DNA of 45,456 nucleotides from IMG/VR virus record IMGVR_UViG_3300004633_000352, positions 1 through 45,456 of that record. One strand, given 5' to 3'. The DNA comes from a virus. Its lineage: Duplodnaviria > Caudoviricetes. Shown in pieces: positions 3,697 through 9,013 of this stretch (the first letter of the stretch is position 1; the number at the start of each line of letters is the position of its first letter). The position numbers and the translations under genes were made by a program. The notes beneath the pieces are model-generated. The model did no database searches. It worked only from the letters and a program-made list of their open reading frames with translations, and was not told the origin of the DNA.

Positions 3697-4143
3697 ATGA
3701 AACTCGTCACCGCTAAAATTACCAACCTGCAATTCACCCTCTCCCCGTTCTCCGCCCAGCAGATGTCGGACCTCGGGGATTTCATGATCGCGACCAAGTT
3801 CGCCCGCCTGGACCAGGCGCTCGACTCGACCGACTCGCCGGCCCCGCCGCTCACCGATCGCTACGCTAAGGCCAAGATCAAATACTATAACGCCGCCCCG
3901 GTCCGCGACTGGCGGTTCCGCGGCATGACGCGCCGCTCGATCAAGACCATCCGCGCCAACCAGGAGCGGGTCGTGATCGGGCCGGTCAACTCGCAGGCGG
4001 ACCTGATCATGACGGTGAACCGGCGCCGGTCGGAGCAGTGGTCGGACAGTCCCAAGGACACGCAGGCTCTCCACGCCTATACCGAGGCGATGATGCAGGC
4101 GCACCGGGTGGTACGGGTGGTACAACAGCTCAAGACCGCCTGA
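3697..4143 (+). CDS. Virion morphogenesis / tail completion protein (Mu gpG / P2 gpS-like)
   Basis: PL..RY.K.K followed by a G.TRRSI pattern typical of this family; 148 aa. Confidence 0.55.
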   Translation: MKLVTAKITNLQFTLSPFSAQQMSDLGDFMIATKFARLDQALDSTDSPAPPLTDRYAKAKIKYYNAAPVRDWRFRGMTRRSIKTIRANQERVVIGPVNSQADLIMTVNRRRSEQWSDSPKDTQALHAYTEAMMQAHRVVRVVQQLKTA

Positions 4144-4152
4144 CGTCTGAGA

Positions 4153-4185
4153 CCGCCTGACGCCCGCCTGACGCCCGCCTGACGC
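4153..4185. repeat. Tandem repeat CCGCCTGACGC x3
   Basis: Perfect 11-nt unit, three copies, just after the stop at 4143. Confidence 0.9.
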
Positions 4186-4204
4186 CCCGTCCGGCCCCGC
4201 CACG

Positions 4205-4213
4205 TGCTATGAT
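4205..4213 (+). promoter_or_regulatory. Extended -10 promoter upstream of the solitary CRISPR repeat
   Basis: TG-C-TATGAT, ending 19 nt before the repeat; no canonical -35. Confidence 0.55.
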
Positions 4214-4232
4214 ACGGCCAATAGTAGATCTC

Positions 4233-4265
4233 ACCGCACCCTACCCGGGGCGCGTGGATTGAAAC
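4233..4265 (+). CRISPR. Solitary type I-C-like CRISPR repeat unit (not an array)
   Basis: ACCGCACCCTACCCGGGGCGCGTGGATTGAAAC; the 3' half matches the I-C consensus GGGCGCGTGGATTGAAAC, the 5' half is degenerate; one copy seen, no cas genes. Confidence 0.8.
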
Positions 4266-4321
4266 GTTGTGTTCGGTCAAGTGTACCGTTCGCGTGTGTT
4301 TCGTGTGTTTCGTGTGGTAAG

Positions 4322-4379
4322 GGATAACAGGCGGGTCCTGGGCTGCTTTCACCCGGGTCACCGCCTGTTTCCATCTTTT
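4322..4379. terminator. Long hairpin between the repeat transcript and the convergent ORF
   Basis: AACAGGCGG...CCGCCTGTT stem with an inner CCTGGG/CCCGGG stem, followed by ATCTTTT. Confidence 0.5.
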
Positions 4380-4384
4380 GCCCC

Positions 4385-4666
4385 CTACTGTCCCCGCTCC
4401 TTTTCCCGCGTACGTTCCTTCTCGGCAAGCCACTGCTGGACAACCTCCAGCTTGTCGAGGCGGCTCTCATGCGCCTTGGCTGTTTCTGCCTGCGCGGTGG
4501 CTCTTTCTGCCTGCGCGACAGCCACCAGTCGCAATTCAGCGATCGACTGCTTTAACGCCAGGGTCTCGTCATACAGCCGGGCGAGTCCAGCCCAGAACTG
4601 CTCCTTGTCGAAGTCCGGTCCACCCAGCTTGCCAAGGGCAACCGCGTGCGGATTCTTTTTAGTCAT
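4385..4666 (-). CDS. Small protein with N-terminal KNPHAVALGKLGG (KGG-like) motif and coiled coil
   Basis: 93 aa antisense insertion in the tail operon with its own AT-rich upstream region. Confidence 0.7.
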   Translation of the reverse strand: MTKKNPHAVALGKLGGPDFDKEQFWAGLARLYDETLALKQSIAELRLVAVAQAERATAQAETAKAHESRLDKLEVVQQWLAEKERTREKERGQ

Positions 4667-4792: not shown

Positions 4793-7700
4793 GTGCCCGA
4801 CAACACGATCGAGTACTCGTTCAACAACCGCTCGATCGTCGAGGGTCTGGCCGAATTAAACAAGCTCTTCCAACAAACCTCAGAGAGCGCGGGCGATGTG
4901 GCCAGGCAGTGGTCGACGGCTCTGGCGGGCGTCGTCACGCAGGCCACCAACCTTAGTACCGCATACGTCAAGGCTACCGACCGGTCTACCAAGTCTCAGG
5001 AGCGGTGGCTCAAATCGCTCGAGCAGACCGCCGCCACCTACGGTAAATCGGGCGAAGAAGCGTTGATCGCCAAGCGGGACATCACTATCAAGCAGCTCGG
5101 CCAGCAGACGGACGCGATCAATAAGGTCAGAGCGGCGTACGACCAGATGATCAAGACCACGCGGGAGGCAGCCGCCGCCGGTGAGAGGCAACAGTCCCAG
5201 CGGCAGACCGAGTCGCGTGTCTCGGCACTCGAGTCGCGAGCCGCGGTGGCCGGCCTCGAAGGCGCGGACAAACGGCACGCCGAGGCGGAGTTACTGATCA
5301 AGGACCTGGGTGGCCAGACAGAGGCAATCAACCGGGTCATCGCGGCCACCGAGAGGCTCAACGCGGCTGAGGCCAAACAGACGCAGGGTTCCCAACGGGA
5401 GCAGGCCGAGCAGCGGATCGCGGCTCTCGAGCAGCGTAATGCACAGGCCTCTATGAGCGCCGCAGACAAGCTGGTAATGCGCGAGCGGGAACTGCTCAAG
5501 GGTGTCGAGGGTGAGGTCGGATTACGCGAGCGGGCCCGTGCCGCAATCGAGGCGGAGGCTCAGGCTGAGCAGAAGGCATTAGCGGTAGAGAAGTCCCGCC
5601 AGGCAGAGCAGAAGGTCATGGCCCTCGAGGAGCGAGCTGCCGTATCCCGTATGACCGGCATCCAGCGACTACGCCACGACGAGGCCAAGATGCTCCGCGA
5701 GATGGGCGATCAGGGCGAAGCGACTGCCAACCGGATCAAGCGGGCGTTCGCGGACCTGGCCAAGTCGCAGGGCGGCGAGGGCGGGGGTGCGGGCGTGCAG
5801 CTCCTCCGCGGGGCGCGCGACATCTTCGAAGGCCGGATGGCATACGGTGAGGTGCAGATCGGTAAGGCTCTGTCGTCTCTGTCCGGCGCCCCGATGATCA
5901 TCGGCGGGATCACGGCCGCATTAGTCGGTGCTGCCGCGGCCGGCTACAAGGCCGCCGAGTCACTCGGCGACTATGCCGTCAAGATCCACAACATCCAAGT
6001 CGTGACGGGTATGACTGCGCGCGAGGTGCAGCAATTCACCTTCGCGGCCAAGCTGACCGGCCAGGACTCCGAGATTGCCGAGCGCATGGTCCGCGGTCTC
6101 ACGCAGGCGATCGAGGATCAGGGATCGCAGGGACAGCGCGCGCGCGAGACGCTGAAGGGCATGCATGTGGATTTGCTCGCGCTCAAGTCTGGTGCTACCA
6201 CGCCGATCGAACTCTTCCAGCAGATCGCCACCCAACTCGAGCGACAGCCGAACCTGTGGATGCGGAACAAGGAAGCGATCGATCTCTTCAAACGCGCTGG
6301 CATCCAGTCTCTGCCGATCCTCGCGGAGTTCAACGACGCGCTCAAGAAGTCGGCCGACCTGGCCTTCCCGACGGACGCGCAACTGAAACGGTGGAAGACG
6401 ACTCACGAGGAACTAGAGAAGGTCAAGACCGAGTTTGACATCGTCGTGATGCACATTAAGGAGGAGCTCGCCACTCCGTTCAAGTTCGTGCTGGAATTCG
6501 TAGCTGCGGGTTCGAAGGATACCGTCACAGGCGCGCTGATGCGCGGGCGCATGGATGAGGTCTTGCAGAATGCGCTCAAGCAAGCCTATCCGGATACGGG
6601 ACCGCTCATGCAGGCGGCGACCGACAGGGCGCGGCAGCAGGCGCGCGAGGCCATGCCGCAACTGACGACTTCCAAGACGCCTTACCTGGCAGGACTGGCG
6701 AAGACGGACATAGAGGTGGCCGAGGCGGCCGCCCAGCGTTTGAAGAAGGTCTATGACGAGACGCGCGATGATCAGCTCAAGAGCGTAGCCGATACGCTGA
6801 AGGCCAAAAAAGCGTATGAGGATCAACTGGCGATCGTGACGCGTCTGCGGGACGCGGAGGCCCACCGCAAGTCGAACGCCGAGGCCCTCCTCAAGTTGCA
6901 GAGCGAGGCCAAGGAGAAAGCGGAACACCCATACGGCATGCTGCCGGCGGAGCGCGCGCTGATGGAGTATAAGGCGCGCCCGGGCGTCACCGCGCAACAG
7001 GTCGAAGCGGCGCGCCAGGCACTCCGTCCACAACTGGACGAAGAGGTGGACGCTATCCTGCGCAAGGCCGGACTGAAGCGGACTACCGTCGACGAGTGGA
7101 TGAACTCCGCACTCTTTGGCAGGAGCCCATTGGGACCGATCTCCCGTGATGCGATGCAGATCAGGGGCGCTCAGTTCAGCGGCGGTTTCGTCGGCCCCTC
7201 GCTCGATCTCACCGCCAAAGGCCAGCAGGAGCTCGAGGCCCGTGGCCGGCTGATGCAGGAGAACCTGAAACAGGAGAGCGATGCGAGCCGTGAGTACGTG
7301 CGTGCCGCCGAGGATGTGCTGCTCGAGAACCGCAAGCTCGCCCGGTTCAGTGAGGAGGGTCAGGCGCGTGTCGCTGGTATACTCGCTCCGGAGAGTCCGG
7401 AGAACCGGCTGGCCACGGAGAAGCGGATCCACGACATCCGCAAGCAGCAGGTCGCGGATGAGTACCGGGCGGCGAAGGCGCGAATCGCCGAGGATTACAC
7501 GGACAAGGAGCAACGCGAGACCCAACTGCTGCAGTTGAGGCTGCGCGCGTCACGTGAAGTAGCGGAGCTCGACGCGCAACTCGATGAGCAGCGTGCTACT
7601 GAGGTCCGGCGGCGCCTCGATGAGATCAAGTCCGCCACCGAGTCTTTGCTGCACACGCTCTTCACCAAGCCATCCGAGTTCGGCCGCCAGCTCGCCACCA

Positions 7701-9013
7701 CCTTGCGTGACGCGGTCCTACGGCCGATCGAGAAAGGCCTGGCCGAGCAGATCTCACATGCCCTATACGGAACCGTAGGCAAGATAGGAGGCATACTCGG
7801 TGGGATCGCCGGCGGTCAGTCGCCGCAGATTCAATCGACCGATATGAACACGGTCGCGACCAACATGAACACGGCGGCGATGCAGTCACTGGCCATGTCT
7901 TTGGGCGGTGCGGCCGGTATTGCCGGCTATGGCGGTGCCGGCGGATATGGCGGCTACTCTCCTGCCGGGGGTTATTCTCCTGCCGGCGGCTACTCTCCTG
8001 TTGAAACGGGTGGCTTCCCGGGCGGCGGCGGGGGCGGGGGCGGCGGAGGCGGCGGGGGCGGTATAGGCGCCGTCCTGGGAACCGGTGTCGCAGCCCCTGG
8101 AACCGGCAGGTTCGGCAAACTCGCGGCCGCGCTCGGCGGTATCGGCGGCGGTGGCATGATGGTCGCCAGGGACAGCCAGGGCGGCCTCTGGGCTACGGTC
8201 GGCAACACGTCCTACTCGATCGACACCCTCGGCGGCAAACTCAATGCGTTTGGCCATTCCGGCGTCGCCAAGGCAGGAGCCTTCGCCGGCGGCATGATGG
8301 CTGCCCAATACGGTCTCCTCGGTAGCAGACGCGGGACGACTGCCGGGACCCTCCTAGGCGCACTCGGAGGTGCCGGTATGGGCTGGTCGGTCGGCGCATC
8401 GATCGGCGCGGTCGGCGGCCCGCTCGGCGCGGCTATCGGTGCCGGCGTCGGTCTGCTGGTCGGTATCGGTGAGCAGATCGCCGGCGTCGAGACTCCTCAG
8501 CGTCACGCCAAGCGTCTGGTCGCCCAGCTCTACCACGTCTCGATCAACAACTCGATGGCCGACCAGATCGTACAGCTCGCCCAGCAGCGTTACGGCGGCA
8601 CGGTCTCGGTCGCGGTCCGCTCTCCCGAGGTGCGTGAGATGCTCGGGCTCTACGCGGCTGGTACAGGCCAGAGATTCGCCGCCTCCGCCATGACTCCTCA
8701 CGGCGGCAGCCTGGTCGAATCGGGCGGCCAGCTCTACCAGGGTGCCAGCTACCAATACGGCAACGTGTTCAGCTACTCCTCTGGCCTCCCCGTCTACGGC
8801 GGCGTCTCGGGCCAGCCACTCCCCTCGCCCGGCGGTGGCGGCAACACGTACCTGTCGCTGAACGTCTCAGGCGACGCGGTGGCCGACTTTATGACGGGCC
8901 AGTATGTGACCCCCGACCGCATCAGCGCGACGCAGCAGCAGGCCTACCGCTCGTCTACAGGACGCGTCCAGTCGGCTATGCTGCTCAACGAGCCGGGGAG
9001 CATAATCGCCTAA
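4793..9013 (+). CDS. Tail tape measure protein
   Basis: 1406 aa Ala/Glu/Arg-rich helical protein with a Gly-rich hydrophobic C-terminal part, in the canonical position; TAAAAT ends 5 nt before the GTG start (possibly leaderless). Confidence 0.92.
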   Translation: MPDNTIEYSFNNRSIVEGLAELNKLFQQTSESAGDVARQWSTALAGVVTQATNLSTAYVKATDRSTKSQERWLKSLEQTAATYGKSGEEALIAKRDITIKQLGQQTDAINKVRAAYDQMIKTTREAAAAGERQQSQRQTESRVSALESRAAVAGLEGADKRHAEAELLIKDLGGQTEAINRVIAATERLNAAEAKQTQGSQREQAEQRIAALEQRNAQASMSAADKLVMRERELLKGVEGEVGLRERARAAIEAEAQAEQKALAVEKSRQAEQKVMALEERAAVSRMTGIQRLRHDEAKMLREMGDQGEATANRIKRAFADLAKSQGGEGGGAGVQLLRGARDIFEGRMAYGEVQIGKALSSLSGAPMIIGGITAALVGAAAAGYKAAESLGDYAVKIHNIQVVTGMTAREVQQFTFAAKLTGQDSEIAERMVRGLTQAIEDQGSQGQRARETLKGMHVDLLALKSGATTPIELFQQIATQLERQPNLWMRNKEAIDLFKRAGIQSLPILAEFNDALKKSADLAFPTDAQLKRWKTTHEELEKVKTEFDIVVMHIKEELATPFKFVLEFVAAGSKDTVTGALMRGRMDEVLQNALKQAYPDTGPLMQAATDRARQQAREAMPQLTTSKTPYLAGLAKTDIEVAEAAAQRLKKVYDETRDDQLKSVADTLKAKKAYEDQLAIVTRLRDAEAHRKSNAEALLKLQSEAKEKAEHPYGMLPAERALMEYKARPGVTAQQVEAARQALRPQLDEEVDAILRKAGLKRTTVDEWMNSALFGRSPLGPISRDAMQIRGAQFSGGFVGPSLDLTAKGQQELEARGRLMQENLKQESDASREYVRAAEDVLLENRKLARFSEEGQARVAGILAPESPENRLATEKRIHDIRKQQVADEYRAAKARIAEDYTDKEQRETQLLQLRLRASREVAELDAQLDEQRATEVRRRLDEIKSATESLLHTLFTKPSEFGRQLATTLRDAVLRPIEKGLAEQISHALYGTVGKIGGILGGIAGGQSPQIQSTDMNTVATNMNTAAMQSLAMSLGGAAGIAGYGGAGGYGGYSPAGGYSPAGGYSPVETGGFPGGGGGGGGGGGGGGIGAVLGTGVAAPGTGRFGKLAAALGGIGGGGMMVARDSQGGLWATVGNTSYSIDTLGGKLNAFGHSGVAKAGAFAGGMMAAQYGLLGSRRGTTAGTLLGALGGAGMGWSVGASIGAVGGPLGAAIGAGVGLLVGIGEQIAGVETPQRHAKRLVAQLYHVSINNSMADQIVQLAQQRYGGTVSVAVRSPEVREMLGLYAAGTGQRFAASAMTPHGGSLVESGGQLYQGASYQYGNVFSYSSGLPVYGGVSGQPLPSPGGGGNTYLSLNVSGDAVADFMTGQYVTPDRISATQQQAYRSSTGRVQSAMLLNEPGSIIA

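What the first reader, a model, noticed from the sequence alone, without database searches (positions are those of the whole stretch)
4205..4379. Solitary type I-C CRISPR repeat with its own promoter: candidate RNA anti-CRISPR or crRNA mimic
Seen: extended -10 (4205-4213), then one 33-nt unit ending in the I-C signature GGGCGCGTGGATTGAAAC with an intact 5'-handle sequence but a mismatched hairpin (CGCACCC/GGGCGCG). A GU-rich spacer-like stretch and a strong hairpin follow. No second repeat and no cas genes were seen. Established: phages carry solitary repeat units that act as RNA anti-CRISPRs (Racrs), and crRNA-like RNAs can guide Cascade to repress promoters. Inference: this ~150-nt RNA is processed by host Cas5c and either sequesters Cas5/Cas7 or redirects Cascade. 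It sits inside the tail operon, convergent with an orphan 93-aa gene.
Basis: partly seen in the sequence, partly recalled or inferred. Interest (0 to 1): 0.85.

Follow-up and report, generated by a model that had tools for sequence, protein, structure and literature searches.

The report
Catalogued phage I-C crRNA decoy candidate
A soil phage, likely of Acidobacteria, carries one look-alike of a type I-C CRISPR repeat between a promoter-like site and a hairpin, likely making a small decoy RNA that would tie up the host's CRISPR proteins; this exact repeat is already listed, untested, in a published catalogue of RNA anti-CRISPR candidates.

Summary
One 33-nt type I-C repeat (4233-4265) lies 19 nt behind an extended -10 site, followed by 57 nt and a strong hairpin. 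It is solitary, and the window has no cas genes. The repeat is not new: it is listed twice as an I-C Racr candidate in the supplement of Camara-Wilpert 2023. I saw no test of it there.

Added here: the likely hosts are Bryobacteraceae. 43 of 401 such genomes carry cas5c, and their spacers hit relatives of this phage. Their commonest repeat matches the unit at 27 of 33 positions, and every difference lies in the half that Cas5c discards.

No promoter target for the spacer was found in 63 host cas loci, although 13 of 15 host cas-regulating RNAs did show theirs. No full-length viral protospacer turned up, and the RNA is about 40 nt longer than host guides. A non-targeting decoy (0.55) is therefore favoured over a promoter-silencing guide (0.22) or a relic (0.15).

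Corrections: the 93-aa gene has 45 homologs, and the distal GU-rich part is a 9-nt microduplication. Only 1 of 80 related records has a similar repeat. This scan has reported like elements on other phages.

The parts
4205..4213 (+). Extended -10 promoter-like site (TGnTATGAT) without a -35; start of transcription predicted near 4220
   Evidence: Sequence; 1 of 4 such sites in the window; no -35/-10 pair called. Activity is inferred.
4233..4265 (+). Solitary degenerate type I-C repeat, 33 nt; predicted Cas5c cut between 4254 and 4255, leaving an 11-nt handle (4255-4265)
   Evidence: 27 of 33 identical to the commonest host-family repeat, last 20 nt identical; 4235-4265 listed as an I-C SRU in PMC10651486 supplementary file 3, rows 1464 and 1753; cut site by analogy.
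4266..4322 (+). Spacer-like stretch of 57 nt with no target found; 4261-4302 folds back so that the handle end pairs with 4298-4302; 4293-4316 is a 9-nt microduplication
   Evidence: Target searches; folds; tandem repeats.
4322..4378 (+). Strong 3' hairpin with a weak T run; likely end of the RNA, possibly shared with the convergent gene
   Evidence: -32.8 kcal/mol, z -4.0; not called as a terminator; loop centre 94 nt from the handle start.
4385..4666 (-). Convergent 93-aa ORF; residues about 17-93 belong to a small, probably coiled-coil family seen in Bryobacteraceae and metagenomes; the first 16 residues lie outside the family core
   Evidence: 45 homologs, alignment; no Pfam, PHROG or NCBIfam hit; Atlas gave only generic helical look-alikes. 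No link to the repeat found.
3697..4143 (+). Conserved 148-aa tail-region gene, upstream border of the accessory slot
   Evidence: tblastn hits in most of 101 related loci.
4793..9013 (+). Likely tape-measure gene, downstream border of the accessory slot
   Evidence: 1406 aa, position in a conserved gene order; the name is inferred from size and position, with no family hit.

Best explanation
This phage carries a solitary type I-C repeat between an extended -10 site and a hairpin, likely transcribed as a small RNA that host Cas5c would cut and that would then occupy Cascade subunits as a non-targeting decoy, weakening type I-C immunity. Shown: the anatomy; the match to the repeat of the likely host family; type I-C loci in that family whose spacers hit this phage clade; no target in the loci searched. 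Inferred: host RNA polymerase makes a roughly 155-nt RNA from about 4220. Cas5c cuts after 4254. Only about 35 nt lie upstream of the cut, so the active piece is likely the downstream one (11-nt handle, 57 nt, hairpin). That piece binds Cas5c and seeds Cas7c/Cas8c in competition with real crRNAs. This differs from RacrIF1, where the piece upstream of the Cas6f cut does the work.
For: The exact repeat passes the published SRUFinder filter (I-C, 93.5% identity, 93.9% coverage, score 46.1), and another I-C solitary repeat, RacrIC1, inhibits a I-C system (PMC10651486, passages). All 6 differences from the commonest host repeat fall in the first 13 nt, and the last 20 are identical, which fits selection on the part Cas5c reads. 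Relatives lie in Bryobacteraceae-labelled genomes, and 43 of 401 genomes of that family carry cas5c. Of 708 spacers from their arrays, one matches two relatives at 34 of 34 and another matches 9 related loci with 7-8 mismatches, the six printed having TTC or TTT beside them. The promoter-like site sits where chance gives about 0.001. The spacer has no promoter target in 63 cas loci, whereas 13 of 15 host regulators show theirs. The 3' hairpin loop is 94 nt from the handle start, against 47-58 nt in 9 of 11 non-palindromic host regulators and 48-50 nt products for tested I-C guides (bioRxiv 2024.12.27.630466, passages). A non-targeting crRNA also lowered interference in the Racr paper. A second relative (L067) has a different solitary I-C repeat in the same tail operon.
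Against: No conservation: 1 of 80 tube-related virus records has a clear repeat, at another site and with another sequence; none of the 7 records at least 90% complete has one. In the whole 161-nt RNA the canonical repeat stem has pair probabilities of only 0.06-0.13, though forcing it costs just 1.6 kcal/mol. The handle end is predicted to be paired (0.99; 1 of 708 host crRNAs reaches this, with a window length chosen after seeing the fold), which could block Cas5c rather than trap it. No -35 and a weak T run. No neighbouring anti-CRISPR gene was recognised. No host spacer hits the window itself within 7 mismatches, and the true host is unknown, so the missing target is weak evidence.
Confidence: 0.55

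Rival explanations
1. It is a Cracr: the first 11-17 spacer bases guide host Cascade to the cas promoter, or a defence-gene promoter, of a host that was not sampled, and silence it while also competing for Cas proteins.
For: The same parts in the same order as CracrVA1 (bioRxiv 2024.10.29.618823, text parts 1-2 of 9) and as host regulators in this family. Each host regulator has its own spacer, so a miss is expected without the true host. The opposite strand of spacer bases 10-15 reads TTGACC, a -35-like hexamer. Spacer position 5 is T, as in 11 of 11 non-palindromic host regulators, against 192 of 708 array spacers.
Against: Best seed run 8 with a TTN PAM in 45 family loci; no promoter match in 63 loci or in the further loci. 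A PAM-plus-seed pattern gave 170 matches in 401 genomes; the 50 I read lay in ORFs or showed no sign of a cas locus, and the 2 exact ones among the 150 listed are in or over unrelated genes. No host regulator with this spacer start in the metagenome scan or in 246 genomes. The hairpin is about 40 nt too far out, and the seed is predicted to be largely paired.
Confidence: 0.22
2. It is a silent or decaying relic: a piece of host array or host regulator picked up with the small gene in an accessory slot, and no longer processed.
For: Absent from 79 of 80 related records. The slot holds variable inserts in some relatives. Microduplications have arisen on both sides (4153-4187, 4293-4316). The canonical stem is a minor fold. 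The neighbouring ORF has a leader outside its family core.
Against: Changes are confined to the discarded half, and the last 20 nt are perfect. A consensus extended -10 and a z -4 hairpin bracket the unit. I saw no duplicated phage sequence flanking the repeat among the repeat families shown (20 largest of at least 60), as a recombination scar might leave.
Confidence: 0.15
3. It is a guide with another target: a competing phage, a promoter in the part of this phage's genome outside the window, or the host cas3 reading frame.
For: Viral mini-arrays target other viruses (PMC10120712, passages). The same tail-tube protein lies on a contig of 71 kb, so about 26 kb were not seen. Spacer bases 1-18 resemble the codons of the Cas3 Walker B motif: 13 of 15 scored positions with a GTC PAM in L319, a PAM seen for 3 host regulators.
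Against: 22 viral loci matched PAM plus 15 seed bases; 15 were one redundant sequence, and none matched continuously past base 18. Best score inside the window is 9 of 15. The cas3 score is reached by 44 of 2000 shuffles and 122 of 2000 random window 18-mers, and it was noticed after the fact; the invariant D and E codons force mismatches at bases 11 and 13.
Confidence: 0.08

Closest known systems
Solitary repeat units / RNA anti-CRISPRs (Racr), including RacrIC1 (Camara-Wilpert et al. 2023, PMC10651486)
   Same: Lone intergenic repeat behind a predicted promoter in a virus without cas genes. This very repeat (4235-4265) is rows 1464 and 1753 of supplementary file 3.
   Different: I saw no experiment on this candidate in the passages read, and its forward sequence is in none of the 9 supplementary files. 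RacrIC1 is co-transcribed with acrIC5; this one has its own promoter-like site and no recognised acr neighbour. RacrIF1 acts through the piece upstream of the cut; here only the downstream piece is long.
Cracr RNAs (Liu et al., bioRxiv 10.1101/2024.10.29.618823)
   Same: Single repeat, spacer-like stretch and terminator-like hairpin in a phage; type I-C Cracrs are predicted there.
   Different: The defining match of 9 or more PAM-proximal bases to a host regulator or cas promoter was not found. Their hosts are Pseudomonadota, Bacillota and Actinomycetota; 'Acidobacter' does not occur in the main text. Their Table S2 could not be read.
Host type I-C crlRNAs: CreR and CRISIS regulators (bioRxiv 10.1101/2023.03.10.532045; 10.1101/2024.12.27.630466)
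   Same: Degenerate 5' half, intact 11-nt handle and 3' hairpin. Such units are common in the likely host family (15 picked from 45 loci).
   Different: They sit inside cas loci, have a target within about 200 nt, and give RNAs of about 48-50 nt; here there is no local target and the hairpin loop is 94 nt out.
CreTA toxin-antitoxin modules
   Same: A crRNA-like unit beside a small gene.
   Different: The spacer does not match the small gene's upstream region or anything else in the window, and the gene family does not travel with repeats (0 of 7 virus records).

Membership tests
SRU / Racr candidate | Intergenic, in a virus, no cas genes | tested here: met
   Lies between conserved tail-region genes; no cas family in 44 ORFs. 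The window is only part of the phage genome.
SRU / Racr candidate | At least 90% identity and coverage to a known repeat, bit score at least 41.1 | tested here: met
   Read from the published table, not rerun: 93.5%, 93.9%, 46.1. Against the repeats I collected it reaches 28 of 33.
SRU / Racr candidate | No second or partial repeat within 100 nt | tested here: met
   Flank scores 45-58% by my own alignment; single core.
SRU / Racr candidate | Host carries the same subtype | tested here: inconclusive
   Met at family level (43 of 401; spacers hit relatives); the true host is unknown.
Racr (functional) | Expressed as RNA, bound or processed by Cas proteins, inhibits interference | not testable with these tools
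   Needs experiments; only DNA contigs could be laid.
Racr (functional) | Often within 1 kb of an acr gene | tested here: inconclusive
   Neighbours have no telling hit in Pfam, PHROGs or NCBIfam; no dedicated Acr library was available.
Cracr | Repeat-like unit, spacer-like stretch, terminator | tested here: met
   the T run is weak.
Cracr | At least 9 PAM-proximal bases matching a host CreR spacer or cas promoter | tested here: not met
   Not found in 63 cas loci, further loci, the metagenome scan or 246 genomes. The true host was not available, so this is 'not found in those searched'.
Type I-C crlRNA guide (CreR/CRISIS type) | 3' hairpin loop about 48-55 nt from the handle start | tested here: not met
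   94 nt here; 47-58 in 9 of 11 non-palindromic host units, 67 and 94 in the other two.
CreTA | Spacer targets the promoter of the adjacent toxin gene | tested here: not met
   Best 9 of 15 anywhere in the window with an NTY PAM; no TTN-flanked seed run over 6.
Viral mini-array against other viruses | Two repeats, and a protospacer in another virus | tested here: not met
   One repeat; no continuous match past base 18 in 22 viral loci.

The most novel reading that the evidence does not exclude
The RNA is a guide aimed not at a promoter but at the conserved codons of the Walker B motif inside host cas3. Host Cascade would then park on the gene for its own nuclease and block its transcription across many host strains, leaving Cascade intact but toothless.
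Probability: 0.03. Interest if true: 0.7.

Novelty: already known. Interest (0 to 1): 0.24.

Why it matters
If it works, it extends RNA anti-CRISPRs to phages of Acidobacteria, a soil group for which my one search joining Acidobacteria, phage, type I-C and anti-CRISPR found no paper. It would also test how type I-C decoys act. In I-C the processing enzyme keeps the downstream piece, so a decoy should look like a long non-targeting guide rather than like RacrIF1. A search for 'RacrIC1' returned only the original paper, so that mechanism seems open in the library searched. The element itself is a catalogued candidate of a known class, so the gain is an example and a test case, not a new principle.

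Tried and rejected
- Rfam: 2 chance miRNA matches elsewhere, nothing here.
- CreTA with the 93-aa gene: no target, and no co-occurrence with repeats.
- Close relatives by the single 148-aa protein: none. Exact repeat-plus-spacer in viral contigs: 0. A longer repeat pattern: 1 unrelated locus.
- Whole unit against annotated phages and plasmids: only short hits to the tandem 9-mer or to repeats.
- A first, loose seed pattern matched 191 of 401 genomes and was uninformative (30 loci read).
- Two exact PAM-plus-seed hits: one inside a hydrolase gene, one over the start of an NHL-repeat gene, neither at a cas locus.
- Five recurring 'handle plus seed' hits lie in one conserved coding gene.
- The cas3 Walker B resemblance is kept only as the novel case.
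- 59 viral loci have an extended -10 before a repeat end; a few share the layout (for example L477, L480, L488, L497), and none of these or of the loci encodes a relative of 8 window proteins.
- Sequencing runs: no RNA holder listed.
- The rest of this phage's genome could not be searched.
- Atlas search of the small protein: leads under 0.9 only.
- The review PMC13131331 does not mention Racrs.

Full report
Observation. The window is a 45,456-nt phage record with tail, DNA polymerase, helicase, ParB-like and excisionase-like genes, and no cas family among 44 ORFs scanned. At 4205-4213 lies an extended -10 site, one of 4 in the window, with no -35. The 33-nt unit at 4233-4265 ends in the type I-C signature. 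Its 14-nt core occurs once, and the 100-nt flanks score only 45-58% against it. It matches the best of 17 repeats from the likely host family at 28 of 33 positions; the window without the unit reaches 22, and 40 resampled windows at most 24. A hairpin of -32.8 kcal/mol (z -4.0) follows at about 4322-4373, with a weak T run. Two corrections: the 93-aa ORF has 45 homologs among 72 candidates, and 4293-4316 is a 9-nt microduplication, one of 76 tandem-repeat rows in this window.

It is already catalogued. Supplementary file 3 of Camara-Wilpert et al. 2023 (PMC10651486), a table of 2,194 rows, lists the reverse complement of 4235-4265 twice, as subtype I-C with 93.5% identity, 93.9% coverage and score 46.1 (rows 1464 and 1753). 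Row 1464 has the contig and coordinates of L237, which is identical to the window around the element. My first look-ups used only the forward strand and found nothing. In the passages read, RacrIC1 from a Bifidobacterium prophage is the I-C candidate that was tested. I saw no test of this one.

Likely host and pressure. Tail-tube relatives number 103 proteins among 7,999 scored candidates, one labelled Bryobacteraceae. Of 21 genome loci, 18 carry Acidobacteria-group labels, mostly Bryobacteraceae or Solibacteraceae, and several related virus records are proviruses, so the clade is probably temperate. In the family of one such genome, 43 of 401 carry cas5c; across the phylum, 17 of 341. The commonest array repeat (8 of 25 arrays) is 33 nt long and aligns without gaps: 27 of 33, with all differences in the first 13 nt. 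Of 708 spacers, one matches two relatives at 34 of 34 with TTC one base off, and one matches 9 related loci with 7-8 mismatches, the six printed having TTC or TTT beside them. None matches the window within 7 mismatches. So type I-C does act on this clade, but the exact host is unknown.

Context and conservation. Gene order is conserved in 101 related loci. Read by eye, the 148-aa gene and the tape-measure gene are nearly adjacent in many (L006, L007, L012, L016, L017, L019) and separated by inserts of 0.4-3.6 kb in others (L010, L020, L024, L030). The small ORF was found in 0 of 101. The 650-nt interval is thus an accessory slot. Among 80 tube-related virus records (the best 80 of 293 stretches), one has a clear solitary I-C repeat: L067, antisense, directly after the tail-tube stop. 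It was not found in the published table by two short terms. Three other records gave one-mismatch hits that I did not follow up. Most records are fragments; the 7 at least 90% complete have none. Seven virus records with the small-protein family also have none.

Guide or decoy. From 45 family cas loci I picked by eye 15 solitary degenerate repeats. Twelve have a seed-matched site within about 200 nt, with PAM TTC (6), TTT (3), GTC (2) or GTT (1). A thirteenth showed 14 of 15 with GTC, one is partial and one has none. So the method finds targets when they are there. For the window's spacer, the best run with a TTN PAM was 8 in those 45 loci. In 63 loci with any PAM the best runs were 12 (flank CAA, not a PAM) and 10. 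Further genus samples added nothing. A PAM-plus-seed pattern with one mismatch gave 170 matches in 130 of 401 genomes; the reversed control also matched widely (not summed). I read 50 of the 170 and saw no sign of a cas locus. No host regulator with this spacer start appeared in the metagenome scan (9 loci: 2 this element, 3 arrays, 4 unrelated) or in 246 genomes (14 matches). Among viruses, 22 loci matched, none continuously past base 18. Inside the window the best score was 9 of 15; about 26 kb of the phage were not available. The geometry also departs from guides: the hairpin loop is 94 nt from the handle start, against 47-58 nt in 9 of 11 non-palindromic host units and 48-50 nt products in tested I-C crlRNAs. 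In favour of a guide are a -35-like hexamer on the opposite strand of spacer bases 10-15 and a T at position 5 shared with 11 of 11 of those host units.

Processing. [quoted passage not shown] The mismatched stem is therefore a weak objection. The fold is a stronger one. In the 161-nt RNA the canonical stem has probabilities of 0.06-0.13, although forcing it costs only 1.6 kcal/mol. After the cut, the handle end is predicted to pair with 4298-4302 (0.99, against a mean of 0.27 for 708 host crRNAs, 1 of which reaches it; the 48-nt window was chosen after seeing the fold). This could yield an aberrant complex or simply block loading.

Mechanism. Most likely (0.55): a host-polymerase transcript, cut by Cas5c at 4254/4255, whose downstream piece competes with crRNAs for Cascade subunits. 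In the Racr paper a non-targeting crRNA also lowered interference, and RacrIF1 acted through the piece upstream of its cut; here that piece is only about 35 nt. Rivals are a Cracr for an unsampled host (0.22), a relic (0.15) and another target (0.08). The last includes a resemblance to the Cas3 Walker B codons: 13 of 15 with a GTC PAM in L319, reached by 44 of 2000 shuffles and 122 of 2000 random window 18-mers, noticed after the fact. Every step from transcription onward is inferred.

Sources. PMC10651486: passages, supplement list and searches, part 1 of 39 of file 3 (104). bioRxiv 2024.10.29.618823: parts 1-2 of 9 and passages (31, 32, 35); its Table S2 was not seen and may list this element. 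PMC10120712, bioRxiv 2023.03.10.532045 (89), PMC8524198, bioRxiv 2024.12.27.630466 (111) and PMC13131331: passages only. Faure 2019 is known to me only as cited in these. Literature searches. The labels 'tape measure', 'extended -10' and 'Walker B' rest on recalled knowledge plus position or motif. Genomes G085 and G110 are unpublished and need their depositors' permission: G085 is one of the 43 cas5c-positive genomes and one of the loci scanned without a target (L292), and G110 is one unread pattern match; no positive claim rests on them. Earlier notes of this scan describe like elements on other phages and none on this sequence; I did not use them as evidence.

Verdict. A real, well-formed element of a known class, already listed as a candidate. 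Novelty: already known. Interest 0.24.

Noticed in passing
L249:8362-8379 (+), and like units in L296, L322, L326, L335: In 5 of 15 host type I-C regulators the spacer is a 16-20 nt palindrome, so its own opposite strand, flanked by TTC or TTT, is the target, just upstream of a -35-like hexamer in front of cas5c. Guide and target are the same DNA. Two searches and the passages showed no description of this layout; a protein operator beside a repeat is the alternative.
   Followed up: partly
L327, L330, L332, L339 (host cas loci): Four host regulators have targets flanked by GTT or GTC instead of TTC, suggesting an NTY PAM in part of this family.
   Followed up: partly
L067:7043-7075 (-): A related phage has a different solitary I-C repeat whose last base overlaps the tail-tube stop codon on the opposite strand; what follows is antisense to the gene end. 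Not found in the published SRU table by two short terms.
   Followed up: partly
window, whole: 76 rows of short tandem duplications, many perfect and 9-15 nt long, often between genes: an unusually slippage-rich genome.
   Followed up: no
window:43845-43874: Two divergent extended -10 sites in an AT-rich, near-palindromic stretch, possibly a genetic switch region.
   Followed up: no
window:24495-28973 (-): DNA polymerase A (800 aa) is preceded by a separate 540-aa protein joining a uracil-DNA glycosylase domain to a 3'-5' exonuclease domain.
   Followed up: no
window:4619-4666 (-): The first 16 residues of the 93-aa ORF lie outside the family core, which starts near residue 17 in most homologs; the leader recalls a basic 'KNPxAVALGxLGG' small-protein motif (recalled, not tested).
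   Followed up: no
G004, several contigs: Twelve matches to the seed pattern, the nine listed all the same 14-mer, in one genome that carries two related prophage loci; probably a repeated mobile element.
   Followed up: no
L333 array (G313): Three neighbouring spacers match relatives of this phage clade with 0, 4 and 6 mismatches, a sign of repeated encounters.
   Followed up: partly
L477, L480, L488, L497: Other virus records have an extended -10 site 7-12 nt before a solitary I-C-like repeat: further untested decoy or guide candidates.
   Followed up: no
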